Source: a virus
Taxonomy: Duplodnaviria; Heunggongvirae; Uroviricota; Caudoviricetes
DNA length: 64,000 nt
Reading direction: 5' to 3' (one strand)
Virus record (IMG/VR): IMGVR_UViG_2908567220_000002
Span: 32,001 to 96,000 of that record
The notes under the pieces were generated by a model. The model ran no database searches. It was not told the DNA's origin and saw only the letters and a list, made by a program, of their open reading frames with translations. A program made the translations under genes and the position numbers. Below are positions 4,271 to 61,365 of this stretch, piece after piece; within the stretch, counting starts at the first letter, position 1, and each line of letters begins with the position of its first letter.

Positions 4271-4426
4271 TTACTCCTCAGGTTCGTAAGCTGTGAAGAC
4301 AGCGACCTCCGTCTGGCCGGTTCGGATTCGTACCTCGCAGAGGTCTTTCCTCGTTACCAGTGCCGTCATTATGACGGTTAAACAGATGACGATCAGGGCG
4401 ATTAACATCGCCTTTTGCTGCTTCAT
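4271..4426 (-). CDS. hokD: Hok/Gef family type I toxin (HokD/RelF-like), 51 aa
   Basis: MKQQKAMLIALIVICLTVIMTALVTRKDLCEVRIRTGQTEVAVFTAYEPEE; track ORF 4271..4483 extends upstream in frame, true start at internal Met. Confidence 0.8.
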   Translation of the reverse strand: MKQQKAMLIALIVICLTVIMTALVTRKDLCEVRIRTGQTEVAVFTAYEPEE

Positions 4427-4836
4427 AGCCTGCTTCTCCTTGCCTTTCGGCACGTAAGAGGCTAACCTAGATTTGCCGTTCATAGATTGAGCCTCAGATT
4501 AATGTATAAGCGTCTTGCAGGACGCATAATGTTAACTGGGGCTTTTCTCTATCTGCCTTTGGTGTTCATGCTTGAGGCAGATAGCCTCAAGCACCCGCAG
4601 CAATTTTACTTAACTCCCCTTTTCCCACAAATCGTTTTTATCCCTACTGGTAATGTTCTCCCGATGTGGGATTCCCACATTGGAACGAATTCAATCAGTT
4701 AAAGACTCATCAGAATCTCACCTTTCTAAGTGCCCACAGGTGAGGCATTGCAATAAAAATAGCAAACGTGTATAAAAGGAGGTAATGCATGTTTTTCCAG
4801 TCTTATCAATCCATTACTGAGAGTTAAGGGGGCGCC

Positions 4837-11616: not shown

Positions 11617-11763
11617 ATGAACGAAACAGAATTAAAACACGTTATCGCTCTGCTTCTGGAGGATGCAAAACGCCTCCAGCAACTGGAACCAAATGCAGGC
11701 ACTGAAGCCCGCATCTGGCTGGCATTGTACGCTATTGAGTCAGGTCGTGATGATGAAGGTTAA
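11617..11763 (+). CDS. small hypothetical protein (48 aa)
   Basis: MNETELKHVIALLLEDAKRLQQLE...; ATG 1 nt after the upstream stop. Confidence 0.35.
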   Translation: MNETELKHVIALLLEDAKRLQQLEPNAGTEARIWLALYAIESGRDDEG

Positions 11764-12044
11764 GCATCATCTAAGTTTTTTACATAGCGCCCATTAGATT
11801 CGGTAACAAGAACACCGGGATTTTTCTTAACTTTTGAGGCCACTGATTCAGCAAGGTCAGCAACAGATTCTTTGTCTTCATTCTTGCTTGAATATATATA
11901 TTCGGCATTAGGAAGACGGTAGGTGTTCCCTAAAGAGGTTGTAATCGTTCTGGAGAATCCCTTTGCTTCCATTCGTTCATGAAGCTTATCGTAATCAGCG
12001 GAACTGGAATCGCGAAGTTCGATCCTGACTGTAAATTTTGCCAT
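11760..12044 (-). CDS. hypothetical protein
   Basis: track ORF 11760..12056; GGAGG RBS supports start at MAKFTVRIELRD. Confidence 0.45.
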   Translation of the reverse strand: MAKFTVRIELRDSSSADYDKLHERMEAKGFSRTITTSLGNTYRLPNAEYIYSSKNEDKESVADLAESVASKVKKNPGVLVTESNGRYVKNLDDA

Positions 12045-12074
12045 TTTATCCTCCATTTAGGTTCTGGGTTAGAA

Positions 12075-12330
12075 ATGGAGACCAATACGGGGCTACGTGT
12101 GGTCGTGCGCCGGACACGGATAAGAATCCGGCACTGACAGTTTACTGAAAGGATATTTCCCTGAAAAGTCAGGGCATAACACGAAAGCGTACGGCGAAGG
12201 CCTTCACCTATGAGGCTTGTCGTTAATTTCTTCGACCGTGCGCTTCCGGTTGTGGCACTCCGCGAAATGGCGCGGCGGTAAGTATGGCGGGGTTATTCCT
12301 TCCCCCGTTGAGGACACCGGGTTGTCAGGT
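12075..12330. other. conserved structured non-coding region (copy 1)
   Basis: about 250 nt with no ORF of 60 aa or more, multiple inverted repeats (GGTTGTCA...TGACAACC, CCGCGaaatggCGCGG); second copy at 60990..61310. Confidence 0.35.
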
Positions 12331-12626
12331 TGACCATACGCTTAAGTGACAACCCCGCCATAACTCATACTGCTATAGATATATGGGGACTAACCGGAGG
12401 AAAAATGATAGTTCAATGCACAGACGGGAATAATAAGCTGCTCTGGTCATACGATACCGTCAGCCAGAAACACATAATGAATATGACTTTTATAAAGGAC
12501 GGTACTCAACAAAAAATCATTACCGCCCTTGCAAGTGCATTAACTCAGGCGACAAGCCAAATTCTGCTATCTGATAACGTTAATGGAGTATCTGATATTG
12601 GCTCGATGACCGGGAGGGAGTGCTAA
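12330..12626 (+). CDS. hypothetical protein
   Basis: 98 aa ORF; overlaps 3-prime end of convergent ORF 12567..12836; lies where prophage B has dicF. Confidence 0.3.
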   Translation: MTIRLSDNPAITHTAIDIWGLTGGKMIVQCTDGNNKLLWSYDTVSQKHIMNMTFIKDGTQQKIITALASALTQATSQILLSDNVNGVSDIGSMTGREC

Positions 12627-12836
12627 TACAACATTCCAGTAACCCGAGTGGGGCACGGTAATATTGGCAGGGAATCGTTCATAGAAACCGCCGTAATAGG
12701 TAAAACGCCCGCCCCGCTTGAAAGCCTGGTAATTTGAATCATCCATTAATAAAACATTAATCTGGTGTGAACATTGAACCCTGACAAGGTCACCATCATT
12801 CATGTGTTCACGACTATGTATATGGGACATAAACAC
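12567..12836 (-). CDS. hypothetical protein
   Basis: 89 aa ORF convergent with 12330..12626. Confidence 0.3.
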   Translation of the reverse strand: MFMSHIHSREHMNDGDLVRVQCSHQINVLLMDDSNYQAFKRGGRFTYYGGFYERFPANITVPHSGYWNVVLALPPGHRANIRYSINVIR

Positions 12837-13347
12837 TCCTTTTTACTGTGGAAAGCTAAATCATATCACGGTCTATGAAGTAAAAAGTGAATTTCGTGAT
12901 GCGGTGAATGCGGCTCAGCGCACGCAGAACAGTTAAAAACACAAGTGTTATGGGTGAATCATCCGGCGTTAATTGCTAACTGGTTAACGTCACCTGGAGG
13001 CACCAGGCACCGCATCACAAAGTTCACTTAGGTGATGAAAGGTAGAGAAAATGTTGAATGTAGCTATTGAAAACCAGAACGGGTGGAATTATAGTGCACC
13101 TGCACCTCATAAAACGGGTGCCGGGCGTGGAAACCCGATGTTCACTAACGCGCATAACCGCGCTCAGGCGGTTTTTTTATGCGTAATGCACAGCCACATT
13201 CAGATTATGGTGGGACGTGCAGGGCAGCCGCAAGGCTGGCCGGGTTCGTTAGTGACCGGTATTTCCACCCCTGTACGTCTCACCACCCTTATGGTCGTGG
13301 AAAACCTTGGTGGTGAGTTAATCAAATTCACTAACGAGGCTGCTATC

Positions 13348-13902
13348 ATGGCTACTATCCCTACCCTTTCTCAACCTGACGTAACCATCGAAAATGGTCG
13401 CGCTGTCACTACGTCTGTTGCGATCGCCGAGTTCTTTGGCAAACGCCACGACAATGTTATTCAAAAAATAAAATTACTGGATTGCTCCCCTGAATTCACT
13501 GCCCTTAATTTTAAGGTGAGCGAATACACCGACTCAACCGGGCGCAAACTCCCTATGTACCAAATCACCAAAAACGGCTTCGTTTTCCTGGTGATGGGCT
13601 TCACGGGCAAAAAAGCCGCAGCTTTCAAGGAAGCCTACATCGCTGAATTCGATCGCATGGAGGCAGAGTTGTACCAGCTTAATACCACTACCACAGACAA
13701 AATAATTCCTGGTGATGGTCGCACTCTCGTTGTTCACTTCGACGAACGCGGCAATATCAAATTCACCGAAACCGTTCCTGACGGCGCTCTCGTCTGTACT
13801 CTGGATACTTTCCGCTTTTATCTGGAGAAGCAGGGGTGGACTCTTGTAAACAGGAGCGCAATTAAAAATATGACCGTCGAGCAGTTGCTGAGTATTAAAT
13901 AG
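13348..13902 (+). CDS. Rha-family phage regulatory protein
   Basis: Rha-like N-terminal motif VAIAEFFGKRHDNVIQKIK; GAGG RBS before internal Met of track ORF 13051..13902; upstream extension judged non-coding. Confidence 0.6.
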   Translation: MATIPTLSQPDVTIENGRAVTTSVAIAEFFGKRHDNVIQKIKLLDCSPEFTALNFKVSEYTDSTGRKLPMYQITKNGFVFLVMGFTGKKAAAFKEAYIAEFDRMEAELYQLNTTTTDKIIPGDGRTLVVHFDERGNIKFTETVPDGALVCTLDTFRFYLEKQGWTLVNRSAIKNMTVEQLLSIK

Positions 13903-20137: not shown

Positions 20138-23100
20138 TCAATGTTCGCTTCCTGTTAACTGCCGGACAAGTGCAACCAGTTCGCTTACCTGATTTTCCAG
20201 AGTGCTGATCCGGGTGTCTGCTGTTGCCAGATTTTCACGTAGCGTTGTGTTTTCCTCTTCCAGCGCGGTAACGCGATCATCTGTTTCACGGGCGACCTGA
20301 ACAAGTAAACCCGTCACGGCGGCGTAGTCAACATTAAGATAGCGCGTTTCTTCGCGTAGCTCGTTGCCGTCAACGGTCGGGCCTTGCAACTCTTCACCAT
20401 AATGAGTAAACGATCCCACAGCTTCTGGTATCGCCTCCATTACTTCCTGTGCAATAACGCCAGCATAAGGCATCCCGTTTTCCCTGAGCGTGTAGGTGTA
20501 TCCGTTCATTTTACGGATTGCTTTCGTCGCGTCGCTGATAACGAGAATATCGTCTTTAAGGTCGCGGTCTGATGACTGATTCAGCGTTGTGCAATTAATA
20601 GCGCCATTTACATCAAACAACTGGCCTGCTGACGTTTTTTGCGCATAAAACAGATACGCAGCAGACGTTCCAACCTCAAAAACGTTTTGTCGAGTACTGG
20701 AACCCCACACCCTGACAGAAAACGGCAGTTCTGCATTGCCTGAGTTCTGTAAAACAAAACGATTACCAGTCCCTGATTGCTTTGTAAGGGTTAAATCAAC
20801 GGTTGAGTTAACCTCATTCTTGTTGATAGTGAGCGCCTGCGCTGTAGCCCCGTTAACAGCACCTGTTTTGAGTTGAACCGCGCCGTCATTACCATTTAAC
20901 AGTATCTCAGCTCCGCTAAAGAAATTTTTTAGCGACAGCATCTTACTTACGCCGACTGATGAACCCAACGCCCACGCGAGAGAATTACCGGTGCTATCAA
21001 ACCCACGTACAAAGCAATCCATTTTGCTATAGTCTGACGTGCTTCCAAGGACATCAATTCGCCCTCCGCCAGATTTTACCGGACTAGATGTGGTTAACGA
21101 CCTGACAGTTATATCCTGATTCCATCCGGAAACAACAACCTGACTCCACGCTGTCCAGTTTCCATTAACAACAAAGCGAACGTATATACGTTTTGTGTCG
21201 CTGTTAATCAGCGTTTGCATGTTCGCATAATCTGAATCCCTAACCTTACGAGTCGACTCTACACGGAGCAAAAAGTTACCGGTTACACCGTCAGGCTTGT
21301 TGGTGATATTTGCACCACCTCCAGAGGATGGACAACTATAGTATTTAACCGCCCCGGCATCTGACCTGATGGTCAGGTTGTTAAGATCAACCTTCTGGCC
21401 GCCAATGTTTTCAGGCTCGATGGCTCCTGCTATCCCGGCACTGAACGTAGCAGCGGCTGAAAACGCTGTCGTACCTTTGAAAGCCAGTTGACCACCAATC
21501 GTTAATCCCTTGTCGAGTTTCGCTTGCGTGATCAATTTGCTGTTTTGTTTCTGATCAGGACTCTCGCCAAAAGCCAGATCCCCATTAGTATCAATTCCAA
21601 GATACTTTTGGTTCACGTTGTCTAACTTAAACCCAATGGACACATTTTCAGAAGAACCGGAACGCGTTAAAACCAACGGCGTGTGCTGTACTCCATAGAT
21701 GCTGAGCGTAGTTGCCGATGAGTCAGTGTCGGTATTTGCAATCTCAATCGTTCTGCTTTTAATTTTATACGCTACTGTGAGATCACGGACTTCAACCCTC
21801 CCGTCGTGACGAACAACAAGATCCCCTCCTGATGTCCCCCCTGCTGTCTTTGCCCTGATGCGAACTTCGCCAAGCGAATCAGTGTTAGGACCAGCATAGA
21901 TTATGCCGCGCTCTGTGTTATCGCCAGTATAAAACCGCAAAGCGGTGACTCCACTGTCTGCCCGCAGGAAGACTGACGGTGTACCTTTTTTGATTGTCAA
22001 GTCACCGGTCATTGTATCGCCGGTTTTTTTTACCTGCGCATCGTTCGTTACGTTGCCAAGTCCAACATCCGATTTCGACGGCTTGTTTGCCGAGCCGTAT
22101 AGCTCATTGACGCTAAAAGTCCCGTTGTTAAGCCGGGCATCGGTGCCGGCATAGATCTTAATCTTCGCGGTTGAGTAGTCGATATTGATCGCTGACCACG
22201 TATCGCCGCACCGCGAGAATATACCAGAACCGTGGCTATAAATGGTCGCCGTGCTTCCGGTCGGCTTATCACCGCGCCAGAAATGACCACCTTTGTCACG
22301 CAGAGCTTTTAAGATCTCTACATCGCTCATCTTGCCGTTTGTTGATATCCCGCTACCGCCAAGACCGAAAGCGCCTGTAAGCATAGCATTAGAAAGACCC
22401 AAATCTGCTTTAGTCGGCTTGTTTAACTGGTCGTAAATCCTTACAACGGGGCTTTCAACATATCCAGAAGGCGCGGCGGTTTGCTTAACAAATCCGTCTG
22501 GAATGTATAATTCCGTGCGTGCCGTCTGCGCCAGTACCGCAACCTTTGCGCCGTTGATAAATGCGCGCTGGAAGGCCCAAACCTCAATAAAGCCATCACC
22601 TTTAACCAGGCCGTAACGCATCTGGTTGTTATCGGTCAGCCCGGTTGACCCTAAGCGGCGTATACTCAGATGACGAGAAACATTATCCGCACTAAGCAAA
22701 GAAGGCATACCGCGCGCCGAGATCTCGATAAAGTCAATGTTTCCGTAAGGGGAGCCGTAGTTACCAGCGTTAGTAACCATTAGCGTTACATGGCAATTGC
22801 CGCTTCCGGGATCGGAAAGTTTCGCGATCTTTATGTAAAAAGACTCATTACCAGTAACAACGGGCCAATCGTATTGCGTCATCGGGCTGACGAGTCCCCC
22901 GACCTTGTCGAGATATTCTTTCGCCTTGTTCTCTGACGCTTTAGCGTTGGTTTCGCTGACCTTTGCTGCTGCCTCACTATTTTTCGCGTTGGTTTCTGAT
23001 TTTTTGGCTGCTGTCGCGGAGTTTGCCGATGCAGTTTGTGAGTCTGCTGCCGCCTGTGCGCTGTTATCCGCATTCGTCTCAGACGTTTTTGCGGCCTTCG

Positions 23101-23917
23101 CGGAATTTCCTGCCGCCGTTGCCGAGGAAGCTGCACTACTGGCACTTGATGATGCGTTCGTTTCTGATGATTTCGCTGCCTCTTTTGAGGCCGCCGCATC
23201 CCGGGATGAGGTGGCAGCTTCTGACGCTTTCGTGGTCGCGGTGGATGCAGAAGTGGCTGCAGATTTTTGTGACGCTGCAGCATTCGTTTCTGACGTTTTC
23301 GCCGCACCGGCACTGGTGGCTGCCGCGCTTTTTGAAGACTCTGCGGCGGCAGCACTTTTTAATGCTTCAGTGGCCTTTGTTGATGCCGTTCCTGCGCTGG
23401 AAAAAGCCTCCTGAGCCGACGTCGCGGCCTGTCCGGCTGACGTTCTGGCTGCGCGTGCTGAGTCTGCAGCATCAGTCGCATGGGTTGCCGCCTCACGGGC
23501 TGATGTGCCGGCATCGCTGGCTGACTTCTTCGCGGCTGCCGTGTTCTGTGCCACTGCGGACGCGTTACGCGCCACCTCTGCCACCATCAGTTCAAAGCGG
23601 CGCAGTGCCTCCGGACGGGCATCATCCTCCGTCATGGCACCGAGAAAATCATTCAGCGTACCCGGTTGTGAGTCTTCATACACGGTGATGGTCCCGGCAT
23701 GCGATGGCGGGAAGCCTTCCACCAACAGAATAACGCTGTACTGACCGTACTCAACGTCCATGCTGTAACGCCCTGCTTCATCCGGATTTTCAGATGCCAC
23801 CGTGTTCACCACCACCGTGGTGCTGTTACGTTTTGCTTTCAGCTGGATTGTGCAGTTCTGTACCGGTTTACCTGCACCGTCTTTCAGTACACCTGAAATC
23901 TTTACTGCCATATTCAC
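20138..23917 (-). CDS. stf: side tail fibre protein with C-terminal intramolecular chaperone (S74-like) domain
   Basis: 1259 aa; N-terminus MAVKISGVLKDGAGKPVQNCTIQLKA... matches lambda Stf; Ala/Ser-rich repeats; C-terminal DLKDDI...NGYTYTLRENG... chaperone-like region. Confidence 0.85.
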   Translation of the reverse strand: MNMAVKISGVLKDGAGKPVQNCTIQLKAKRNSTTVVVNTVASENPDEAGRYSMDVEYGQYSVILLVEGFPPSHAGTITVYEDSQPGTLNDFLGAMTEDDARPEALRRFELMVAEVARNASAVAQNTAAAKKSASDAGTSAREAATHATDAADSARAARTSAGQAATSAQEAFSSAGTASTKATEALKSAAAAESSKSAAATSAGAAKTSETNAAASQKSAATSASTATTKASEAATSSRDAAASKEAAKSSETNASSSASSAASSATAAGNSAKAAKTSETNADNSAQAAADSQTASANSATAAKKSETNAKNSEAAAKVSETNAKASENKAKEYLDKVGGLVSPMTQYDWPVVTGNESFYIKIAKLSDPGSGNCHVTLMVTNAGNYGSPYGNIDFIEISARGMPSLLSADNVSRHLSIRRLGSTGLTDNNQMRYGLVKGDGFIEVWAFQRAFINGAKVAVLAQTARTELYIPDGFVKQTAAPSGYVESPVVRIYDQLNKPTKADLGLSNAMLTGAFGLGGSGISTNGKMSDVEILKALRDKGGHFWRGDKPTGSTATIYSHGSGIFSRCGDTWSAINIDYSTAKIKIYAGTDARLNNGTFSVNELYGSANKPSKSDVGLGNVTNDAQVKKTGDTMTGDLTIKKGTPSVFLRADSGVTALRFYTGDNTERGIIYAGPNTDSLGEVRIRAKTAGGTSGGDLVVRHDGRVEVRDLTVAYKIKSRTIEIANTDTDSSATTLSIYGVQHTPLVLTRSGSSENVSIGFKLDNVNQKYLGIDTNGDLAFGESPDQKQNSKLITQAKLDKGLTIGGQLAFKGTTAFSAAATFSAGIAGAIEPENIGGQKVDLNNLTIRSDAGAVKYYSCPSSGGGANITNKPDGVTGNFLLRVESTRKVRDSDYANMQTLINSDTKRIYVRFVVNGNWTAWSQVVVSGWNQDITVRSLTTSSPVKSGGGRIDVLGSTSDYSKMDCFVRGFDSTGNSLAWALGSSVGVSKMLSLKNFFSGAEILLNGNDGAVQLKTGAVNGATAQALTINKNEVNSTVDLTLTKQSGTGNRFVLQNSGNAELPFSVRVWGSSTRQNVFEVGTSAAYLFYAQKTSAGQLFDVNGAINCTTLNQSSDRDLKDDILVISDATKAIRKMNGYTYTLRENGMPYAGVIAQEVMEAIPEAVGSFTHYGEELQGPTVDGNELREETRYLNVDYAAVTGLLVQVARETDDRVTALEEENTTLRENLATADTRISTLENQVSELVALVRQLTGSEH

Positions 23918-23975
23918 CCCACAAAAAAGCCCGCCTGAACCGGCGGGCTGTCATAACACTGTGTTACCTGGCTAA

Positions 23976-24575
23976 TCAGAACTTATAACCAACACCCACG
24001 ATGAACCCGTCAGTGCGCCAGTCGCCACTGCCGGAGCCTTCATAAGCGACATCAACGGCCACGGATTCGGTCGGGTTAAACTGCACGCCAGCCCCCCACG
24101 CCAGAGACATGTTGCTGTGGCGACCGTCATCACTTCCGGTCAGCACATCGTGCGTTTTCCCCTTGTTGTCAGTTACGCGGAGATAATCCCCGGAGAAAGT
24201 CGACACACGGCTGTAAGCCATACCCGCCATCGCATACGCGCTGAACCATTCATTCACGCGCACAGACGGCCCCGCCATCACGCTGAACCAGCGGTTACGC
24301 ACGGAATCTTCATGCCAGCGGGTATCGCTGTAACGGGTCAGCTGGCGATTCTTGTCTCCTGCATAGCTGAATGACGTCACCAGCCCCAGCGTATCCGTAA
24401 ACTCATAACGGTATTTCACGTTAATCCCGTTCAGATTATCGCTGCCGGGAGCGTTCGTACGGGCATGAAGATACCCTGCGCTCAGTGTGGCCTGCTGCTC
24501 AGACGCCCATGCAGGCGCACCGGATACGGCCAGACAGATGGCTGCGGACAAAATGGCTGCACAAACTTTACGCAT
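23976..24575 (-). CDS. lom: Lom/Ail family outer membrane protein
   Basis: 199 aa with signal peptide and beta-barrel pattern ending GYKF, lambda lom position. Confidence 0.85.
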   Translation of the reverse strand: MRKVCAAILSAAICLAVSGAPAWASEQQATLSAGYLHARTNAPGSDNLNGINVKYRYEFTDTLGLVTSFSYAGDKNRQLTRYSDTRWHEDSVRNRWFSVMAGPSVRVNEWFSAYAMAGMAYSRVSTFSGDYLRVTDNKGKTHDVLTGSDDGRHSNMSLAWGAGVQFNPTESVAVDVAYEGSGSGDWRTDGFIVGVGYKF

Positions 24576-24643
24576 AATTACCTCTCGCTTTTCTGCAATA
24601 AAAAAGGCGCCAGAAATGGCGCCCGCATATGGGTTATGAAAAT

Positions 24644-27600
24644 TCAGCTAATCGTGATACCTGCTGTGGATTTCTTCATCACCACAACCAGCAAATCACT
24701 GATACTGGCTGTGGGATACCAGTCATTTACCAGCCACGCTGATACCGAAAACTCCAGCGTCATGTGACCGCGACCAGCAGGCATATCAATAACACCTGTA
24801 TAAACCAGCGTATTATCCAGCGCGGTACGGTTATAAATTTCAGCACCGTTTTTCTTCACTATCAGGCGGCATGACGAATAAATATCGTTATTCTCCCGCT
24901 CATGTTTAGCGCCACGAAACGCCACCGCGGGAATAACAATCTGCCGGTCAAACGGCTGATCGTCATAAACCCTGACGGTAATGGTCCCTGATGGCCACCG
25001 CTCCGGTGCACGGGAGTCCCGGGGGAAAGCTTTGCCCACTGTTTTAACGAGATCGCCTTCAATCTGGTTCGCAGACAGTTTTCCCAGAACCCGACAGTTT
25101 TCATTTATCGTGACATTGTTGAGCGTCCCGGCGTTCGCATTCACACTGCCACTGATATCCGCATTTTTCGCCGTCAGTCGCCCGTCCGGTGTCAGGGAAA
25201 ATGCCGGTGGATTTCCACCGCTGGTAATGGTGGGGGCCGTCAGGCGTTTCAGGAACACGTCGTTCATGAATATCTGATCGCCCTGACCAACAAACATCGG
25301 TTTTGTGTTGCCATTCGCAGGATTAACCATCGCAATCCTGTCCGCCGCCAGCAGCACCTGACTCTGCATGCCGTCAGGGGTGTTCTCAATACCGGCACCA
25401 ATACCCGCGATATAAAGGCGTCCGTCCTGCATCTGCTGCAGCTTCACAGCCCACATGCTGTTCAGGTTATTATTTGTATCAACCTGAACCTTCTGTATCT
25501 GCTGAATTGCCGCACTCTGGTCTTCCAGTTTCTTATTGACGGTCTGCGTGATTTCATTGCTGACATCCGTAATGGACGTCCTGATTTCAGCCAGGTCAGG
25601 CGCAAGCTGACCGTTATCAATCTGCGTCCACAGCTCCTGAGCCAGATGGGTTTTCCCTATCTCGCCTTTGAAAAAATCCAGATAGCCGGATGCGTCATCA
25701 CTCGGCTGACCAACAGCCTCCACGAATGCCGATTTGCCAACGGTGTTCACACTGCGAACGTAAAAATAATAATTATGGCCCGGTTTGATATTGATACTGG
25801 CGGCTATCCAGTACAACGCCGTACCAAGATAGCGTGCTGTGGTTTCAACCTGCCTGATATCCGCAATCCGCTTTTCCGAGAACCAGAACTCAAACTGTAC
25901 CGTCGGATCATAAACCGCAAGATGCGGCGTGGCGGTTATCTGAAAATAGCCCGGCGTCAGCTCAATCCGCGACGGCGCTGCCGGTGCGGCAATCCGGAAC
26001 GATACCGACGCCGGATCGCCCTGCTGCCCCCACGCATTTACTGCCCGGACTGTCAGCCTGTAGTTCCCCAGAGCCAGTTGTGTGAAGCGGTAAGTGGTTT
26101 CCGTCGTCCGGGCCGTGCTGACCAGCCGCTCACTGCCGTCATCCGCTGCCACGGTCAGGCGAAGCAGGAAGCTCACGCCCTTCACCACCTTCGGCGTGTC
26201 CCAGCGGGCCAGCACCTGGTATTCCCCGCTGTCTGCGGTGACTTCTGCGGTCAGATGCTGCACTGCTGGCGGCGTGACACCATTCACCGTGCCGCTCTGG
26301 TCGCCGTCAAAGTGCGCCCCGTTATCCACGATGGCCTCTTTTTCCGGTACATGCTGCACGGCGGTGATGGCATACGTGCCGTCATCGTTCTCACGGATAC
26401 TCACGCAGCGGAACAGGCGCTGGCGCAGCGTCGGCAGCTTCAGCCCCCATACGCTGTATCCGGCAACGCCGTCAGGAACACGGCTCACTTTTACCTTCAC
26501 GCCGTCGGTGACGGACTGGACCTCCACGCCGACCGGATTGCCACTTCCGTCAACCAGGCTTATCAGCGTGGTACCGGAGGATGGCAGCGTGATTTCACGG
26601 TCGAGCGTCAGCGTCCGGGTCTGGCTGTTCACCGCCAGCACGCGCCCGCCGGTGCTGATACCGGCATAGTCATCATCGCAGATTTCAATGACATCGCCCG
26701 GTACATGGCGAAGCCCTTCAGCACCCACGCTGAAGTCCACGGTCTGCGTTTCCAGCAGCTCCGTTTTAATCAGCCACAGCCCGGCGCGGTGTGCCTGCCC
26801 CCGGCTGGTACAGCCAAAGGCATCCATCTTCGTGACGTTACGACCGTAACGGGCAATGGCCTGCGAGTCCTCCACAAGCTCTGTTGCCGTCTCCCAGCCG
26901 TTATCCGGGTCAATCCAGTTCACTTCAACGGCATTATGGCGGTCTTTCAGGGCGCTGAAGCTGTAGCGGAATGGTGCGCCATCATCCGGCATCACCACAT
27001 TACTGCGGTTATAGGTCCACACCTTATCCGATGGTCGGTCCTGCACGAACGTCAGCGTCTGCCCGTTCCATACCGGCATACAGCGCATCGCCGAGCAGAA
27101 ATCACTGAGCACATCCCACGCCTTACGTTGTGTGGTCAGGTACGCATTACAGGTGATGCGCGGCTCCGTACCGCCAAAGCCGTCCGGCACCGACTGGTCA
27201 CAATGCTGGCCGATGACATACAGCGCCCATTTGTCCACATCCGCCGCACCAAGACGTTTCCCCATGCCGTAGCGCGGATGGGTCAGCATATCCCACAGAC
27301 ACCAGGCCATGTTGTTGCTGTATGCTGGCTTAAACGTTCCGTCCCAGATACCGCTGTATTGCCGCGTCTGCGGGTTATAGTTCGACGGCACCTGCAGAAT
27401 GCGCCCGTGCAGATGATAATTACGGCTCACCTGCTGGCTGCCGAACTGCTCCGAATCCACCTGCACGCCGACCAGTGCCGTGTTCGGGTAGCACTGTTTC
27501 ACATCGATGATTTCGGTGTATGACGACCAGAGCGTTTTGTTCTGCAGCTGGTCTGTGGTGCTGTCCGGCGTCATCCTGCGCATCCGGATATTAAACGGGC

Positions 27601-28123
27601 GCGGCGGCAGGTTACCCACCACCACCGAGGCCAGATACTGCGAGGTGGTTTTGCCCTTAATGGTGATGTCTTTTTCCGTCACCCAGCCACCATTACGCTG
27701 GATCTGAACCAGCAGGCGGACTTCCGACGGATTCCTGTCCCCCTTTGAGGTGGTTTCCACCAGTGCCTGCACGCCGAAGGTAAAACGCAGTCGGTCAATG
27801 TTTGCCGACGTGATGGTCCGGGTGATCGGCGTGTCGTATTTCACTTCCGTACCCAGCACCGTCTCGGAGCCGGAGGATTCAAATCCCTCCGGCGGTGTCT
27901 GCTCCTGCTCACCGGCCCGGAACACCACCGTGACGCCGGAGATGTTGGTATTCCCCTCACTGTCCAGCACCGGCGTACTGTTCAGCAGCACGCTTTTTAA
28001 TCCATCCACCGGACCTTCAATCGGCCCTTCGCTGATGGCATCGATCACACTCAGCAACTGCGTGGACTTCAGGTTGTCCTTCGCTTCGCGCGGAGTATGC
28101 CCCTTACTGCTGCCTTTACCCAT
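24644..28123 (-). CDS. J: tail tip host specificity protein J
   Basis: 1159 aa, N-terminus [24 protein letters not shown]..., lambda J synteny. Confidence 0.9.
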
Positions 28124-28182
28124 TCGTCACGCTCCATAAACGACAAAACCGCCCGCAGGCGGTTTCACATAAACGTTTTTCA

Positions 28183-28830
28183 TCAGCGACCAATCACCAC
28201 AACCTGACCACCATCCCCTTCGTCTGCCGTGCTGATCTCCTGAGAGACCACCTGCGACCCCACGCGCATTTCACCGTACAGAACGGGCAGAACATTGCCC
28301 TGGGCAACCATGTTATCCAGTGAGGAGAAATAGGTGTTCTGTTTGCCGTTATCTGTACTTGCTGCCGTGGGCGTCCTGGCTTTCGGTGCCAGCATCTGCG
28401 CCACTCCGCCAAGGATCATACTGGCCCCCGCAGCATACATGCCCGATAAAGCCGCAGCTCCCAGCCAGCCTGCAGGGTTCCACCACGCCACTGCAATCAG
28501 CGCCGCACCCAGCACCGCCTGAAACACACCGCCACTTTTTGCTCCCGCCAGACGCGGCACGATGTGGATCACGGCACCATTTGCCAGCGGCTCATTAAGA
28601 CGGGCAGACAATTCGGTTTCACCTGCATCACGCCCGGCAATCCGTATCTGATACCAGCCCTCATTCAGTTTCTGACGAAACACCGGGAGCTGTGTGGCCA
28701 GTGCGCGGATGGCTTCAGCCCCCGTTTTCACACGAAGGTCGATGCGGCGGCCAAATCGTTGCAAATCCCCGTAAAGGCAGATGCGTGCCATTCCCGGTGA
28801 CGCCAGAGGGAGTGTGTGCGTCGCTGCCAT
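28183..28830 (-). CDS. I: tail assembly protein I
   Basis: 215 aa, lambda I synteny and similarity. Confidence 0.8.
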   Translation of the reverse strand: MAATHTLPLASPGMARICLYGDLQRFGRRIDLRVKTGAEAIRALATQLPVFRQKLNEGWYQIRIAGRDAGETELSARLNEPLANGAVIHIVPRLAGAKSGGVFQAVLGAALIAVAWWNPAGWLGAAALSGMYAAGASMILGGVAQMLAPKARTPTAASTDNGKQNTYFSSLDNMVAQGNVLPVLYGEMRVGSQVVSQEISTADEGDGGQVVVIGR

Positions 28831-29471
28831 TTGTCGGTGTACCTCTCTCGTTTGCTCAGTTGTTCAGGAATATGGTGCAGCAGCTCGCCGTCACCACAGT
28901 AAATGGCGGCATGATTCGGCACCGATGAACCAAAGCAGCACAGCAGCACATCGCCCGGTTGTGCTGATGACAACGGCACCTGATACAGCCCTGTGGCCTC
29001 CAGATTATCCAGATAGAGATTCTGACCGTGACGCCACCAGTCATCCCCGCGATGAAAATCCGGCATCTCAATCCCCGCCAGATGATAAGCATCCCGGAAC
29101 AGCGTGTAACAGTCCGTCACTCCGTGCTCAAAGCGCCGCCCGGTGAGATGCGGCACACAGCGGAACTTATGAATCGTCCCCCGGCAAACCAGCCACCACG
29201 GCAAATCACTCTGCACCTGCAGCCGCCGGTCGGCCTCACTCAGCCAGGGCAGACCACCGGGGTGGCTGTGGACCAGCGCCACAATCTCACCCTGCATTTC
29301 TGCCCGCAGCCAGTCCTCCGGCGACATCCGGAAATACGCCTCCGGCTCACCGGAGATATTCACGCAGGGAAAATATCTTTCCCCTTCCGGCGTTCTCACC
29401 ACGAAGCCGCACGACTCCGCTGGCGCACATCGCCGGGCGTGCGCCAGAATCGCTGATTCTGTCTGTGTCAT
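28728..29471 (-). CDS. K: tail assembly protein K (NlpC/P60-like)
   Basis: 247 aa, lambda K synteny; overlaps I start as in lambda. Confidence 0.8.
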   Translation of the reverse strand: MTQTESAILAHARRCAPAESCGFVVRTPEGERYFPCVNISGEPEAYFRMSPEDWLRAEMQGEIVALVHSHPGGLPWLSEADRRLQVQSDLPWWLVCRGTIHKFRCVPHLTGRRFEHGVTDCYTLFRDAYHLAGIEMPDFHRGDDWWRHGQNLYLDNLEATGLYQVPLSSAQPGDVLLCCFGSSVPNHAAIYCGDGELLHHIPEQLSKRERYTDKWQRRTHSLWRHREWHASAFTGICNDLAAASTFV

Positions 29472-29476
29472 GGGAT

Positions 29477-30175
29477 TTACTGCGAAAGTTTGTTAATGGA
29501 AAGGAAGCCGCCAAAGTTGCCGACGTTATTGCGAAACTTACAGCCGCTCAGGCATTTGCTGCATTTATCCTTCGTGATATCGGACGTCGGCTGGTCATAT
29601 TCATCCGCGACAGCCGGACCGCTATAACCGCACTCGTCACCGCGATAGGTCCAGGTGCAGGTGTTGGCCAGCATGATACGTCCCGGAAAAACAGCGCCAT
29701 CCGTTTCCGTCGGCGTGGACAGTACAAAGGAGGCACTCACCGCGCTCAGTTCGCTGCACTGCTCAATGCGCCAGCGGCTGATCACCTCCTGCTCCGGATC
29801 GGCGTAACTGTTTCCGTTGACGAAGTTCACCGCATCCAGAAAACGGGCGTAAACCTTACGCCGGACCACCGTTCCGCCGACCAGACTCTGCATATCTTCC
29901 GCCATCCCGGTGACCATACCGTACAGGTTAGAAACCGTCAGCGTGGGGCGCGTACTGGTGCCTTTGCCATTCAGTTCAAAACCGCTCCCCTGAATGGGAT
30001 ACGGCTGATACTGTCGCCCCTGCCAGGTGACCGGCTCACCTTTTTCGTTCTGCTCATTACAGAAAAAATAACGTTCTCCACCGACCTCTGTCAGGTCGAT
30101 TTCCCAGAGCACCACGCTGGCCGACTGCTCCGCACGGGTGCATTCATTCAGTGTTTCCTGCCGGATATCCTGCAT
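29477..30175 (-). CDS. L: minor tail protein L
   Basis: 232 aa, lambda L synteny and similarity. Confidence 0.85.
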   Translation of the reverse strand: MQDIRQETLNECTRAEQSASVVLWEIDLTEVGGERYFFCNEQNEKGEPVTWQGRQYQPYPIQGSGFELNGKGTSTRPTLTVSNLYGMVTGMAEDMQSLVGGTVVRRKVYARFLDAVNFVNGNSYADPEQEVISRWRIEQCSELSAVSASFVLSTPTETDGAVFPGRIMLANTCTWTYRGDECGYSGPAVADEYDQPTSDITKDKCSKCLSGCKFRNNVGNFGGFLSINKLSQ

Positions 30176-53989: not shown

Positions 53990-54145
53990 TTACTCCTCAG
54001 GTTCGTAAGCTGTGAAGACAGCGACCTCCGTCTGCCCGGTTCGGATTCGTACCTCGCAGAGGTCTTTCCTCGTTACCAGTGCCGTCACTATGACGGTTAA
54101 ACAGATGACGATCAGGGCGATTAGCATCGCCTTTTGCTGCTTCAT
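53990..54145 (-). CDS. hokD: Hok/Gef family type I toxin (copy 2)
   Basis: 51 aa MKQQKAMLIALIVICLTVIVTALVTRKDLCEVRIRTGQTEVAVFTAYEPEE within track ORF 53990..54202. Confidence 0.8.
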   Translation of the reverse strand: MKQQKAMLIALIVICLTVIVTALVTRKDLCEVRIRTGQTEVAVFTAYEPEE

Positions 54146-54436
54146 AGCCTGCTTCTCCTTGCCTTTCGGCACGTAAGAGGCTAACCTACGTGTGTAGAGC
54201 ATAGATATGGCCTCAGATTAATGTTAAGCGTCTTGCCGGACGCGTAATGTTAACTGGGGCTTTTCTCTATCTGCCTTTTGGTGTTCATGCCTGAGACAGA
54301 TAGCCTCAAGCACCCGCTGCAATTCTACTTAACTCTCCTTTTCCCGCAAACCGTTTTTATCCCCAGCGGCAAATCGAATACACCACCAGCGCCACCGCCA
54401 TCGCAATTCCTACCGTTGTTAATGCTTCAGGCCAGG

Positions 54437-59554: not shown

Positions 59555-59974
59555 ATGGACAAATATGAATTTAGACGACAGCAACTCATCAAAATTCGTG
59601 ATGAGAAATGCGATGGTAAAGCGGTTAACGTGGCCAGAAAGATCGGGCGCGAGCCTTCTTATGTATCAAGAATGTTGTACCCAGAGGGGAAAAAGGGAAA
59701 AAAACGGATCGCTGATGATATGGTGGAGATTATCGAAGAGTCCTTTGGGTTACCCCGGGGATGGATGGATGGTATCGTTTCATCATCAACGAACACAGCC
59801 TCCAGTTATGAAACAAGGGTTCTAACGCCACGACAACGTATTTTTTTAGATCTCTTAGACGAACTGCCAGAAAGTGAAGCGGATAAATTATTAAAAACTC
59901 TTGAAGAGAAAAAACAGTATTACAATATGATCTACGAAGAAATCCGTAAAAAGAAAGCACAAAACGCATCATAG
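59555..59974 (+). CDS. CI-like prophage repressor (different specificity from prophage A)
   Basis: 139 aa; N-terminal DNA-binding region differs from prophage A repressor, C-terminal region conserved. Confidence 0.7.
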   Translation: MDKYEFRRQQLIKIRDEKCDGKAVNVARKIGREPSYVSRMLYPEGKKGKKRIADDMVEIIEESFGLPRGWMDGIVSSSTNTASSYETRVLTPRQRIFLDLLDELPESEADKLLKTLEEKKQYYNMIYEEIRKKKAQNAS

Positions 59975-60403: not shown

Positions 60404-60724
60404 ATGGAATTTAAAGATTTACCAGTACCATTCCAGGAAATGGCATCGAATGTGGTTCGCTCTCAACTGGCGACTCTTGACCTGAGTACCGTAGAAAAAG
60501 AAACCATCGACAATATATCCGGTAACGTACGCCGAGCCTTTATCGGGCTGTACGAAGAGAAGCAGCTCTCTGATAACCAGGATTTACATGAAAAATACTT
60601 CCTGGATCTAATGGACATCATTGATAAGGGGTTTGGCTTGTTAATGAAAAAGAAAGGGATTCGAATAGAACCCCTTGAAAATTACTTTGCAACAAAAAGC
60701 ATTAATTCTTTTGATTCAAAATAA
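60404..60724 (+). CDS. hypothetical protein
   Basis: probable start MEFKDLPVPFQ with GAGG RBS within track ORF 60392..60724. Confidence 0.4.
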   Translation: MEFKDLPVPFQEMASNVVRSQLATLDLSTVEKETIDNISGNVRRAFIGLYEEKQLSDNQDLHEKYFLDLMDIIDKGFGLLMKKKGIRIEPLENYFATKSINSFDSK

Positions 60725-60977
60725 GAGAATTAATTACAGACTTAACATGCTCTTTCTCATGATTGAAGCTCTCATGATTGAAAGTGCCGGGTTGAAGCGA
60801 GTCGATATAATCAACAAGACTCTGTCGTACGACTTCATTTTTATCCATAACAGATGCAAGAAATGAAATTGCTAAAAGAGTTATATCACTACGCGCCGCA
60901 GCATGTTGCAATGCTTTATCAAAATTATTAATCTGGCGTATCAGGGAGTTAATGATTTCATCATTTTCAGTCGACAT
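60702..60977 (-). CDS. hypothetical protein
   Basis: probable start MSTENDEIINSL with AGGAGG RBS within track ORF 60702..61190. Confidence 0.45.
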   Translation of the reverse strand: MSTENDEIINSLIRQINNFDKALQHAAARSDITLLAISFLASVMDKNEVVRQSLVDYIDSLQPGTFNHESFNHEKEHVKSVINSLILNQKN

Positions 60978-60989: not shown

Positions 60990-61310
60990 AGGGTTGGTGA
61001 TTAAGGAGTTCTCCACGGGTGAGGTGGAGTGCGTGCGCCGGACACGGGTGAGCATCCGGCACTGACAGTTTACTGAAAGGATATTTCCCTGAAAAGTCAG
61101 ACCATAACGCGAAAGCGCACGGCGAGGTAGCTGGTTCATAGATAGCCTGTCGTTAAATTTTCGTCGACCGTGCGCTTCCGGTTGTGGCAATCCGCGAAAT
61201 GGCGCGGCGGTAAGTATGGCGGGGTTATTCCTTCCCCCGTTGAGGACACCGGGTTGTCAGGTTGACCATACGCTTAAGTGACAACCCCGCTGCAACGCCC
61301 TCTGTTATCA
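60990..61310. other. conserved structured non-coding region (copy 2), upstream of dicF
   Basis: homologous to 12075..12330; conserved flanks with a variable centre. Confidence 0.35.
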
Positions 61311-61312: not shown

Positions 61313-61365
61313 TTTCTGGTGACGTTTGGCGGTATCAGTTTTACTCCGTGACTGCTCTGCCGCCC
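61313..61365 (+). ncRNA. dicF: DicF small regulatory RNA
   Basis: TTTCTGGTGACGTTTGGCGGTATCAGTTTTACTCCGTGACTGCTCTGCCGCCC followed by T-run, matches remembered Qin DicF; just upstream of dicB. Confidence 0.7.

What the first reader, a model, noticed from the sequence alone, without database searches (positions are those of the whole stretch)
12075..12330. Conserved, highly structured ~250 nt non-coding element present in both prophages
Regions 12075..12330 and 60990..61310 are clearly homologous, contain no ORF of 60 aa or more, and are rich in inverted repeats (GGTTGTCA...TGACAACC, CCGCGaaatggCGCGG). The flanks are conserved while a central segment is variable. In prophage B the element lies directly upstream of dicF, so it may be the dicF precursor leader with RNase processing structures, or an independent regulatory RNA. 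The divergent minus-strand genes next to it differ between the prophages, which argues against it being merely their promoter.
Basis: seen in the sequence. Interest (0 to 1): 0.5.

Follow-up and report, generated by a model that had tools for sequence, protein, structure and literature searches.

The report
Structured leader of DicF small-RNA cassette
Both copies are the folded, non-coding RNA leader that sits in front of the prophage small RNA DicF and is already known as its RNase III-processed precursor; it also contains a conserved four-armed fold that I did not find described in the papers and databases available here.

Summary
Window 12104-12358 and 61032-61290 are 91% identical, with unrelated flanks. 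Neither region carries a conserved reading frame.

Copy B is almost identical to the E. coli K-12 Qin ydfC-dicF untranslated region. That region is known: RNase III cuts it to give the 190-nt DicF species, and RNase E then releases the 53-nt DicF.

Comparative analysis adds an anatomy on the + strand:
- **5' module:** small hairpins followed by a roughly 21-bp hairpin.
- **3' module:** a 116-nt four-way junction with a candidate loop-to-internal-loop pseudoknot. Compensatory changes support it, and no Rfam family matches it.

The same junction lies about 36 nt downstream of phage P1's repressor-controlled ban promoter. In nearly every sampled case it is followed by DicF or a different DicF-like small RNA plus a terminator.

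Copy A is a rare derivative, found in 8 of 5426 E. coli genomes, in which dicF was replaced by two genes. What the four-way junction does is not established. The main candidates are a processing or stability platform and a cis-acting control of terminator read-through.

The parts
12080..12104 (+). Copy A, leader hairpin (GACCAAUACG...CGUGUGGUC). Its sequence is not homologous to copy B's, but it occupies the same position.
   Evidence: Read from the sequence. The same leader type recurs in several viral contigs. Copy B has a different hairpin, CUCCAC...GUGGAG, at 61011-61029.
12109..12132 (+). Copy A, hairpin Ha (GCCGGA / UCCGGC with a 12-nt loop)
   Evidence: 96.8% of cells paired in 26 distinct relatives, with one pair changed on both sides.
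12159..12174 (+). Copy A, hairpin Hb (CCCUGA AAAG UCAGGG)
   Evidence: 91% of cells paired. One relative has CUCUGA/UCAGAG, a C-G to U-A change. The K-12 type carries a C.A mismatch at that pair.
12175..12254 (+). Copy A, long irregular hairpin of about 21 bp, homologous to the RNase III substrate of the K-12 dicBF transcript. The variable apical part is ~12198-12222. The position equivalent to the 5' end of the 190-nt DicF species is ~12243.
   Evidence: 98.5% of cells paired. 11 of 21 pairs vary on one side only and stay paired through G.U. The cut position is inferred from the reported 190-nt size mapped through alignment A4.
12249..12364 (+). Copy A, four-way-junction domain.
- P0: 12249-12256 with 12357-12364
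- H1: 12260-12264 with 12271-12275
- P2a: 12276-12279 with 12316-12319
- H2: 12288-12292 with 12303-12307 (pyrimidine-rich loop)
- H3: 12320-12327 with 12347-12354
- Candidate pseudoknot: GUAUGG 12282-12287 with CCAUAC 12334-12339
   Evidence: Covariance model R1 scores this copy at 162.2 bits. 96.7% of cells paired, against 31-57% when partners are slid by 1-3 columns. 10 pairs changed on both sides; 0 of 500 shuffles reach the observed values.
12405..12626 (+). Copy A, 73-aa ORF (phrog_21096) that follows the domain where dicF and its terminator normally sit. Together with the convergent DUF1883 gene at 12567-12836 it replaces dicF.
   Evidence: The arrangement occurs in only 8 of 5426 E. 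coli genomes.
61011..61101 (+). Copy B, 5' hairpins:
- leader hairpin 61011-61029
- Ha 61037-61060
- Hb 61089-61100
61102..61187 (+). Copy B, long hairpin homologous to the K-12 RNase III substrate. The inferred cut that creates the 190-nt DicF 5' end is ~61175, give or take a few nt, in the 3' arm.
   Evidence: Predicted fold and pair counts. The processing itself comes from the literature on the near-identical K-12 sequence.
61181..61296 (+). Copy B, four-way-junction domain with the same architecture as copy A, offset by +48932. It forms the 5' body of the 190-nt DicF species.
   Evidence: R1 scores this copy at 169.5 bits. Pair counts.
61314..61365 (+). dicF, the 53-nt small RNA with its intrinsic terminator, 17 nt downstream of P0
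   Evidence: Rfam RF00039, 76.7 bits.

Best explanation
Both copies are the + strand untranslated leader of the DicF-type small-RNA cassette. That cassette sits in the repressor-controlled early-left operon (PL-like; dicBp in Qin) of Qin/Rac-type lambdoid prophages.

**Shown, by the literature on the near-identical K-12 sequence.** The region is transcribed as part of the polycistronic dicBF mRNA. RNase III is required for a stable 190-nt species. RNase E then cuts to release the 53-nt DicF.

**Shown here.**
- The size-estimated RNase III cut lies in the 3' arm of a conserved ~21-bp hairpin whose tip is free to vary.
- The rest of the 190-nt species, upstream of DicF, is a conserved 116-nt four-way junction (P0, H1, P2/H2, H3) with a candidate pseudoknot.
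- The 5' strand of P0 (GGUUGUGG) is also the 3' base of the RNase III hairpin, so the two structures exclude each other.

**Inferred.**
- While the long hairpin is intact, P0 cannot form. RNase III cleavage frees GGUUGUGG, which then closes the junction.
- This gives a compact structured 5' end that stabilises the long form and sets how fast RNase E releases the small RNA from the single-stranded spacer 17 nt downstream.
- It may also influence how much transcription passes the DicF terminator into dicB.

Copy A is an orphan. A two-gene cassette replaced dicF and its terminator, so there the domain now lies in the 5' UTR of a 73-aa ORF.
For: **Identity with the known leader**
- Copy B is nearly identical to K-12 ydfC-dicF (annotation).

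**Structure**
- Long hairpin: 98.5% of cells paired, with wobble-compatible one-sided changes.
- A second leader family has a compensated version of the stem: AGGCGCAUUUCC/GGGAGUGCGCCU in place of AAGCGCACGG/CCGUGCGCUU.
- Four-way junction: 96.7% paired against 31-57% when slid, 10 pairs with double changes, 0 of 500 shuffles as good.
- H2 has at least six different stems: GGGG/CCCC, CUGGGG/CUCCAG, CAGGUG/CACCUG, GGGU/ACCC, GAGG/CCUC and UGGG/CCCA.
- Compensated pairs: P0 C-G to U-A in the Ayreon type, P2a U-A to C-G in P7, H3 U-A to C-G in P1 and P7, and pseudoknot U-A to C-G in P1 with U.G intermediates.
- Clean loss of H1-H3 leaves a plain P0 hairpin in L005 and L264.

**Strand**
- The commonest states of two P0 pairs are U.G and G.U. 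These would be mismatches on the other strand.

**Context**
- In 129 instances the domain is followed within about 20-40 nt by DicF or another DicF-like small RNA plus a terminator.
- In P1 the domain starts about 36 nt after the C1-controlled ban promoter and is followed by the annotated dicF-like region and a terminator. That makes a ~180-nt unit equivalent to the 190-nt species.

**Not coding**
- The segment across the small ORFs varies in length by non-multiples of three (38, 39, 42 and 37 nt).
- The ORFs are intact in only 20 of 96 (+ strand) and 15 of 96 (- strand) distinct sequences.
Against: - The proposed role of the four-way junction is inference only.
- 28 of 122 cassettes sampled without regard to the domain lack it, yet keep the RNase III-type hairpin, the P0 hairpin, the small RNA and the terminator. 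The junction is therefore not needed to make a DicF-like RNA.
- Its unpaired nucleotides are far more conserved than a simple protective 5' structure would require. About 90 of 94 domain-bearing sequences in that sample match all 20 specified positions of the search pattern exactly. This points to a specific partner.
- Divergence is low and many variants are related, so the covariation statistics are inflated. The pseudoknot rests on one covarying position.
- RNAalifold recovers H1, P2a and H2, but picks an alternative register for H3 and does not predict P0.
- The minimum-energy fold of the copy B 190-nt RNA pairs part of the domain with the DicF terminator instead.
Confidence: 0.55

Rival explanations
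1. The four-way-junction domain is a cis-acting regulator of transcription elongation. In one version the nascent RNA makes RNA polymerase resistant to the small-RNA terminator and to later terminators, as the HK022 put RNA does. In the other it is a sensor whose fold decides termination at the DicF-type terminator, and so controls expression of dicB, kil, exo or ban downstream.
For: - The domain always lies just upstream of an intrinsic terminator inside an early operon whose downstream genes must still be expressed.
- In P1 it sits about 36 nt after the repressor-controlled ban promoter, and in Ayreon and cdtI a few hundred nt after PL. put RNA has the same kind of position.
- No N-type antiterminator family was detected among the neighbouring ORFs that were scanned.
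- One domain-less cassette, phiSTEC1589-Stx1c, is in a phage with an annotated N.
- The unpaired nucleotides are strongly conserved and the fold includes a pseudoknot, as expected for an RNA with a specific macromolecular partner.
- The GGUUG and CAAC motifs each occur three times and allow alternative pairings.
- The GGCGG stretch of the domain is identical to the 5' strand of most of the terminators.
Against: - There is no sequence or architectural similarity to put, which is two stem-loops of about 70 nt.
- There is only one copy per prophage and none in the rightward operon.
- Many domain-less cassettes sit behind the same ydfA-type genes in prophages with no obvious N, so the link with absence of N is not clean.
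- In Qin the domain lies roughly 950 nt from the promoter.
- No alternative pairing with the very different terminators (the P1 type against the GGCGG type) is conserved.
- There is no functional data.
Confidence: 0.2
2. The domain is an independent functional RNA. It could be a trans-acting regulator or a decoy for a host protein or RNase, using for instance the pyrimidine-rich H2 loop. The 190-nt RNA would then be a two-headed regulator rather than a precursor.
For: - The 190-nt species accumulates stably in stationary phase alongside the 53-nt form.
- The domain is much better conserved than the small RNA that follows it: at least 8 different small RNAs sit behind one domain.
- The H2 loop stays pyrimidine-rich (UCCUUC, UCCUCC, CUCCUU) while its stem changes.
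- Copy A keeps the domain without dicF.
Against: - No target or partner is known.
- RNA duplex predictions against neighbouring RNAs and translation-start regions were no better than shuffled controls: z between -2.0 and +0.8.
- Copy A is rare.
- The H2 loop motif is degenerate; some types have UUACUCUUU or UUAUUUCUU.
Confidence: 0.12
3. The conservation is mainly at the DNA level. The segment would be a mosaic-boundary linker kept similar by recombination between co-resident lambdoid prophages, or it would carry the promoter or operator of the divergent minus-strand genes.
For: - The element is one of three short homologous blocks separated by unrelated cassettes.
- The 3' 130 nt are almost identical between the two prophages although the whole element is 91% identical. 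That fits recent gene conversion.
- Deletions and replacements end exactly at its edges or at internal repeats (L016, L264 and copy A).
- Both copies in the window have a minus-strand gene starting about 30-50 nt upstream.
Against: - Compensatory and wobble-only changes that preserve + strand helices cannot be explained by selection on DNA.
- No minus-strand sigma-70-like site lies in the element.
- K-12 and many relatives have no minus-strand gene there.
- The RNA is experimentally detected in K-12.
- Recombination may explain the identity between A and B, but it does not explain the fold.
Confidence: 0.08
4. The element encodes a small protein: the 31-38-aa + strand ORF at 12217-12333 / 61170-61265, or the 37-aa minus-strand ORF at 12204-12317 / 61136-61249.
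For: Both ORFs are present in both copies in the window.
Against: - One-nucleotide length polymorphism in the C-run and larger H2 replacements shift the frame.
- The two halves of the ORF stay in one frame in only 20 of 96 (+ strand) and 15 of 96 (- strand) distinct homologues.
- K-12 itself carries the frameshift.
- The starts are GTG or TTG with no obvious ribosome-binding site.
Confidence: 0.02

Closest known systems
ydfC-dicF untranslated region of the E. coli K-12 Qin dicBF operon, the 190-nt DicF precursor (Faubladier et al. 1990; Ragunathan et al. 2023, PMC10448788)
   Same: - Copy B is nearly identical in sequence and has the same position, directly upstream of dicF and dicB and downstream of a DicA-type repressor and a DUF1391 gene.
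- The region from the size-estimated RNase III cut to the DicF terminator equals the four-way junction plus DicF.
   Different: - Copy A is 91% identical but has no dicF.
- Both window copies have a minus-strand gene upstream instead of ydfB and ydfC.
- The papers I could read describe cleavage sites only, not a fold. 'Secondary structure' occurs 0 times in PMC10448788.
'dicF-like region' downstream of the C1-controlled Pban (Op72) promoter of phages P1 and P7, as annotated in NC_005856
   Same: - 77-82% identity over about 98 nt of the junction, with the helices kept by compensatory changes.
- It is followed by a small-RNA-like hairpin and terminator, then by tRNAs, an STnc100-like element, tciABC and ban.
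   Different: - In P1 the domain is at the 5' end of the primary transcript, with no RNase III hairpin and no 5' module.
- P0 is uncertain in P1.
- The annotated feature covers only H3 and the small RNA, not the whole junction.
HK022 putL/putR processive-antitermination RNAs
   Same: Both are cis-encoded structured RNAs in early operons, downstream of repressor-controlled promoters and upstream of terminators, in phages without a detected N protein.
   Different: - put is two stem-loops of about 70 nt with a triplex, present in both the PL and PR operons, and its action on RNA polymerase is proven.
- Here there is a 116-nt four-way junction, one copy per phage, no sequence similarity and no functional data.
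RNase III sites in the phage lambda PL operon (the N-leader site and sib)
   Same: A long irregular hairpin within an early-left transcript whose cleavage changes the fate of the flanking RNA. This comparison rests on my own knowledge of lambda.
   Different: There is no sequence relation. Here the cleavage creates the 5' end of a small-RNA precursor rather than regulating translation of N or stability of int.
Intra-operonic and 3'-UTR-derived small RNAs released by RNase E (CpxQ, SdhX, SroC; review PMC9438474)
   Same: The small RNA is cut out of a longer mRNA by RNase E and ends at an intrinsic terminator.
   Different: As far as the review describes them, those precursors do not carry a large conserved multi-helix domain directly upstream of the small RNA.

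Membership tests
DicF precursor leader (dicBF operon 5' region of dicF) | Sequence homology to the K-12 ydfC-dicF intergenic region | tested here: met
   Copy B is almost identical to it. Copy A is 91% identical to copy B over ~255 nt.
DicF precursor leader (dicBF operon 5' region of dicF) | Lies directly upstream of dicF on the same strand, in the operon downstream of a DicA/RacR-type repressor | tested here: inconclusive
   - Met for copy B: dicF at 61314-61365, dicB at 61541, and an HTH repressor-like ORF at 59555-59974.
- Not met for copy A: there is no dicF, and orf73 and a DUF1883 gene take its place.
DicF precursor leader (dicBF operon 5' region of dicF) | RNase III cleavage gives the 190-nt species, and RNase E gives the 53-nt DicF | not testable with these tools
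   This is experimental and reported for K-12 only. Here only the conserved ~21-bp hairpin around the inferred site could be shown.
DicF RNA (Rfam RF00039) | Match to the DicF covariance model | tested here: not met
   The only DicF hit is at 61314-61365. Nothing lies inside either element, even at E up to 10.
Any curated RNA family (Rfam 15, including riboswitches, twister-sister and other ribozymes, AgvB, AsxR) | Covariance-model match at the gathering score or at E up to 10 | tested here: not met
   There is no hit over 12075-12370 or 60990-61310, and none over the P1, Ayreon or L286 homologues.
HK022 put-type antiterminator RNA | Two adjacent stem-loops of about 70 nt, with copies downstream of both early promoters | tested here: not met
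   The architecture is a four-way junction of 116 nt. There is one copy per prophage, on the leftward side only. The HK022 locus L008 (genome coordinates 22000-30000 only) gave no hit to model R1.
HK022 put-type antiterminator RNA | The nascent RNA binds RNA polymerase and suppresses pausing and termination in cis | not testable with these tools
   This needs transcription assays.
lambda-type nut site with N protein | boxA and a boxB hairpin next to an N gene downstream of PL | tested here: inconclusive
   - No N family was found among the 9 neighbouring ORFs scanned.
- CCCUGAAAAGUCAGGG only loosely resembles the lambda boxB, and that comparison is from memory.
- N proteins are diverse and only a few ORFs were scanned.
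tRNA or tRNA-like gene | Cloverleaf recognised by ARAGORN or the Rfam tRNA model | tested here: not met
   ARAGORN found 0 genes in both regions and there was no Rfam tRNA hit.
Small-protein gene | Reading frame conserved among homologues | tested here: not met
   Frame-shifting length variation. The ORFs are intact in 20 of 96 (+ strand) and 15 of 96 (- strand) distinct sequences.

The most novel reading that the evidence does not exclude
The 116-nt four-way-junction and pseudoknot domain is an autonomous, so far unclassified structured RNA module.

- It matches no Rfam family, and a match to its 3' end is found in about three quarters of complete E. coli genomes and in P1-type phage-plasmids.
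- It can be inserted into, or lost from, the loop of a simple hairpin.
- It has its own macromolecular partner.

The most interesting version is an RNA-only, put-like modifier of RNA polymerase, or a sensor, that governs read-through of the small-RNA terminator in early operons of phages lacking an N protein. That would be a second class of RNA-mediated antitermination.
Probability: 0.15. Interest if true: 0.8.

Novelty: new member of a known kind. Interest (0 to 1): 0.35.

Why it matters
DicF is one of the oldest known bacterial small RNAs, and prophage copies of it affect cell division, metabolism and EHEC virulence. Work has centred on the 53-nt form, and the 190-nt form has been treated as an intermediate.

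This analysis shows three things about the non-DicF part of the long form:
- It is a more strongly conserved, covariation-supported fold than DicF itself.
- It is shared with phage P1.
- It serves as a constant front end for a variety of different DicF-like small RNAs.

If the fold has its own activity, whether controlling RNase E release, terminator read-through into the toxic dicB or kil genes, or binding a host factor, it would add a regulatory layer to a cassette present in most E. coli genomes. If it does not, the finding is simply the known DicF leader, plus a rare copy that has lost dicF.

Tried and rejected
- **Genome-collection scan.** The single genome-contig scan used a 14-base pattern that was too unspecific. 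119 of 120 hits were chance and only E. albertii (L165) was real. Diversity outside Escherichia, Salmonella and P1 could therefore not be sampled.
- **Known prophage small RNAs.** Pas sRNAs lie in the late region near Q and the holin genes, so they are not this element. AgvB and AsxR are in Rfam and gave no hit.
- **HK022 put.** It has a different architecture, and model R1 found nothing in the part of HK022 that was fetched, coordinates 22000-30000.
- **RNA-RNA duplex predictions.** The domain was tested against C4, IsrK, DicF, the STnc100-like regions and the orf73 and dicB translation-start regions. None was better than shuffled controls.
- **tRNA-like idea.** ARAGORN was negative.
- **Promoter idea.** No minus-strand sigma-70-like site lies in the element.
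- **Coding idea.** The frames are not conserved.
- **Link between the domain and absence of N.** One N-carrying phage lacks the domain. However, many domain-less cassettes sit in DicA/ydfA-type prophages, so no clean correlation exists. A systematic N search was not done.
- **P1 genome paper.** Lobocka 2004 is not held in the library, so I could not read what it says about the dicF-like region.
- **Exact RNase III cut.** The cleaved nucleotide in Fig. S1 of PMC10448788 is marked only by colour, which the text copy does not keep. The site given here is estimated from the reported 190-nt size.
Full report

Yes. The alignment of the two regions and a BLAST of the two prophage segments against each other give one homologous block: 12104-12358 against 61032-61290, 90.8% identity, E 1e-99. 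Unrelated sequence surrounds it.

The last ~130 nt differ at a single base, while a central stretch (~12198-12222 / ~61125-61150) is unrelated. No ORF of 60 aa or more lies within the element, apart from an over-extended minus-strand ORF in copy B.

Rfam places dicF at 61314-61365 (76.7 bits), directly after copy B. Copy A has no dicF.

Single-sequence folding is better than shuffled controls: z = -3.56 for A and -2.23 for B. The complementary strand folds equally well (z = -4.35), so energy alone does not give the strand.

**2. What is it? The known part**

Copy B is almost base-for-base the K-12 Qin ydfC-dicF intergenic region (K-12 annotation). [quoted passage not shown] The published picture is:
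- The dicBF transcript starts at dicBp upstream of ydfA.
- RNase III is required for a stable 190-nt DicF species and generates its 5' end.
- RNase E is required for the 53-nt DicF.
- No internal promoter was found (PMC10448788; the review PMC9438474; all citing Faubladier et al. 1990).

A 190-nt RNA ending at the DicF terminator starts at about K-12 1649245.

**3. Anatomy from comparative analysis**

I collected relatives from several sources:
- phage records
- two IMG/VR pattern scans
- P1-type plasmids
- E. albertii

*(a) 5' module.* It starts with a leader hairpin that differs in sequence between A (12080-12104) and B (61011-61029). Then come hairpin Ha (12109-12132) and hairpin Hb, CCCUGA-AAAG-UCAGGG (12159-12174). 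A long irregular hairpin follows at 12175-12254 / 61102-61187.

In 26 distinct relatives the long hairpin is 98.5% paired. A second leader family keeps the same hairpin with compensated sequence: AGGCGCAUUUCC/GGGAGUGCGCCU instead of AAGCGCACGG/CCGUGCGCUU. The inferred 5' end of the 190-nt RNA falls in the 3' arm of this hairpin.

*(b) 3' module.* This is a 116-nt four-way junction at 12249-12364 / 61181-61296:
- closing helix P0 (GUUGUGGC with GCYRYAAC)
- H1 (CCGCG with CGCGG)
- P2a (CGGU with ACCG), leading through an 8 x 8 internal loop to H2, whose loop is pyrimidine-rich
- H3 (GGUUGUCA with UGACAACC)

On the raw MAFFT alignment of 68 distinct sequences, 95.5% of cells are paired, against 34-61% when the 3' partners are slid. 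8 pairs change on both sides and 0 of 500 shuffles reach the observed values. On a model-fitted alignment of 72 distinct sequences the figures are 96.7%, 10 pairs and 0 of 500.

Specific compensations:
- H2 occurs with at least six different stems.
- P0 changes C-G to U-A in the Ayreon and cdtI type.
- P2a changes U-A to C-G in P7.
- H3 changes U-A to C-G in P1 and P7.

GUAUGG, in the 5' strand of the P2 internal loop, is complementary to CCAUAC in the H3 loop. P1 has GCAUGG and CCAUGC, and two sequences show the U.G intermediate. This is a candidate pseudoknot, but it rests on one covarying position.

The commonest states of two P0 pairs are U.G and G.U. Together with the wobble-only variation in the long hairpin, this fixes the RNA on the + strand, the strand of the dicA-dicF-dicB operon.

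**Caveats on the structure**
- Divergence is low and many sequences are related, so the shuffle statistics overstate significance.
- The first scan pattern fixed 19 positions; the regex used for later counts fixed 20.
- RNAalifold recovers H1, P2a and H2, but chooses another register for H3 and does not predict P0. The register choice arises because GGUUG occurs three times.
- Minimum-energy folds reproduce the junction for the Ayreon version but not cleanly for copy B or P1.

*(c) A shared strand.* GGUUGUGG is both the 3' base of the long hairpin, where it pairs with CCAUAAC, and the 5' strand of P0. The two structures are mutually exclusive.

**4. Distribution and context**

A query spanning copy B and dicF matches 4328 of 5426 complete E. 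coli genomes, with up to 8 places per genome. The 3' end of the domain alone matches 4031 genomes.

In every phage examined the element lies in the sense direction in the early-left operon, between the immunity region and kil, dicB or exo.

The domain also occurs in P1 and P7 at 77-82% identity. There it starts about 36 nt after the -10 element of the C1-controlled ban promoter. The annotated "dicF-like region" and a terminator follow, then tRNAs, an STnc100-like element, tciABC and ban. In P1 the primary transcript up to the first terminator is therefore a ~180-nt counterpart of the 190-nt DicF species.

In 129 instances the domain is followed within about 20-40 nt by DicF, or by one of at least eight different DicF-like small RNAs, each with an intrinsic terminator.

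A sample taken through the conserved sequence downstream of the terminator, and so unbiased with respect to the domain, gave three results:
- About 94 of 122 cassettes carry the domain; 90 match the search pattern exactly and 4 differ by single substitutions.
- 28 of 122 lack the domain. They keep the RNase III-type hairpin and a plain P0 hairpin such as GGUUGUAAAUAACGAC.
- L264 and L005 show clean loss of H1-H3 from within P0.

The junction is therefore a modular, optional insert in a hairpin loop.

**5. Copy A**

Homology between A and B resumes at 12884-13026 with 61371-61522. In copy A, dicF and its terminator (about 80 nt) are replaced by about 525 nt. This insert carries a 73-aa ORF (12405-12626, phrog_21096) and a convergent DUF1883 gene.

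The arrangement occurs in only 8 of 5426 genomes. Copy A is a rare derivative and gives little support for a dicF-independent role.

**6. What it is not**
- **Not a curated RNA family.** There is no Rfam hit at E up to 10 over either copy or over the P1, Ayreon or L286 homologues.
- **Not a tRNA-like gene**.
- **Not coding.** The length polymorphism is out of frame, and the ORFs are intact in only 20 of 96 (+ strand) and 15 of 96 (- strand) distinct sequences.
- **No minus-strand sigma-70-like promoter** lies inside it.
- **Not a Pas, AgvB or AsxR small RNA** (and Rfam).

**7. Mechanism**

*Shown by the literature for the K-12 sequence:* transcription from dicBp, RNase III-dependent formation of the 190-nt RNA, RNase E-dependent release of the 53-nt DicF, and accumulation of both forms in stationary phase.

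*Shown here:* the fold, its strand, its modularity, and its constant position in front of variable small-RNA and terminator units.

*Inferred:*
- RNase III cleavage frees GGUUGUGG to close P0.
- The folded junction then forms a structured 5' body. This stabilises the long form and sets the rate at which RNase E cuts the single-stranded spacer 17 nt downstream.

Two things weigh against this being the whole story. The domain is dispensable in a quarter of cassettes. And its unpaired nucleotides are conserved far more than a protective structure needs, which suggests a specific partner.

The main rival is a cis-acting effect on transcription, either put-like antitermination or a terminator switch. 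What favours it is the invariable position just upstream of a terminator in early operons, right after the promoter in P1. What counts against it is the different architecture from put, the single copy per phage, and the lack of a clean link with absence of N.

An independent trans-acting or decoy role, and DNA-level explanations, rank lower. Recombination between the two co-resident prophages probably does explain why the 3' half is nearly identical.

**8. Novelty and verdict**

As stated, the finding is the known DicF precursor leader (copy B) plus a rare homologue that has lost dicF (copy A).

The added value is the covariation-supported four-way junction with a candidate pseudoknot. I did not find it in Rfam or in the papers I could read. 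It is shared with P1 and acts as a constant front end for diverse DicF-like small RNAs. Its function is open and can be tested directly.

I score overall interest at 0.35. The most novel reading not excluded is an autonomous module acting on RNA polymerase or on an RNase. I give that about 0.15 probability, and it would be of high interest if true.

Noticed in passing
window 4421-4596 (-) and 54140-54315 (-): Each prophage carries a hok/sok-type locus. Rfam sok (RF01794) scores 110 and 117 bits.
   Followed up: no
window 13089-13290 (+), then the ORF running to 13902: Prophage A has a P1 immI-like module: IsrK (13102-13178, 65.9 bits), C4 antisense RNA (13203-13290, 80.3 bits), a weak c4-a1b1 target hit (13089-13141) and an antirepressor-like ORF. 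The 283-aa ORF listed at 13051-13902 runs over these RNA genes, so its start is probably over-extended. Ayreon has the same IsrK/C4 pair, but on its rightward side.
   Followed up: partly
window 12899-13021 and 61377-61517 (+): Sub-threshold STnc100 (RF02076) matches of 33 and 39 bits, against a gathering score of 47. They lie in the conserved spacer that follows the DicF terminator and precedes dicB or the IsrK module. A similar match lies in the P1 ban operon at L006:3842-3961.
   Followed up: no
window 11760-12056 (-): The 98-aa minus-strand gene next to copy A matches phrog_8894. It also matches the GhoS endoribonuclease antitoxin family weakly (PF11080, 19.8 bits, just under the cut-off of 21). 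No GhoT-like partner was looked for.
   Followed up: no
window 12567-12626: The 73-aa + strand ORF (12405-12626) and the convergent DUF1883 gene (12567-12836, minus strand) overlap by 60 nt at their 3' ends.
   Followed up: no
window 60702-61190 (-); L002 2723-3160: RefSeq annotates a 145-aa hypothetical protein on the minus strand that runs into copy B. The likely true start is the ATG at 60977, behind a GGAGGG ribosome-binding site, which gives 91 aa. The extension looks like an annotation artefact over a structured RNA. The 91-aa protein matches no PHROG or Pfam family.
   Followed up: partly
L286 1590-1760 (PP818812.1, 'Actinobacillus phage vB_Apl-pPE4'): The unit made of the P0 3' strand, the DicF-like small RNA and the terminator is tandemly duplicated. 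The phage has a DicA/YdaT immunity region, Kil and exonuclease VIII typical of E. coli Rac-like phages, which sits oddly with the stated Actinobacillus host.
   Followed up: no
L016 1624-1759: A variant in which the sequence between the two CGCGAAA repeats is deleted. One repeat is in the 5' arm of the RNase III hairpin and the other in H1. The deletion removes the hairpin and the P0 5' strand but keeps the rest of the domain and a DicF variant.
   Followed up: no
L251-L284 (for example L254 4000-4345): A second, unrelated-looking leader family sits in front of DicF-like small RNAs: ACCACCGAAGCCCGGAGGUGGU...GGGAGUGCGCCUCCGGUUGUAAAUAACGAC. It has a compensated RNase III-type hairpin and a plain P0 hairpin, and no four-way junction. 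It accounts for about 23% of the sampled cassettes.
   Followed up: partly
window 12248-12334 and 12175-12364: GGUUG occurs three times (P0 5' strand, H3 5' strand, H3 loop). Its complement occurs three times as AAC or CAAC (base of the RNase III hairpin, H3 3' strand, P0 3' strand). Several mutually exclusive pairings are therefore possible. RNAalifold prefers the H3 register that would exclude the pseudoknot. Whether this reflects a real conformational switch is unknown.
   Followed up: partly
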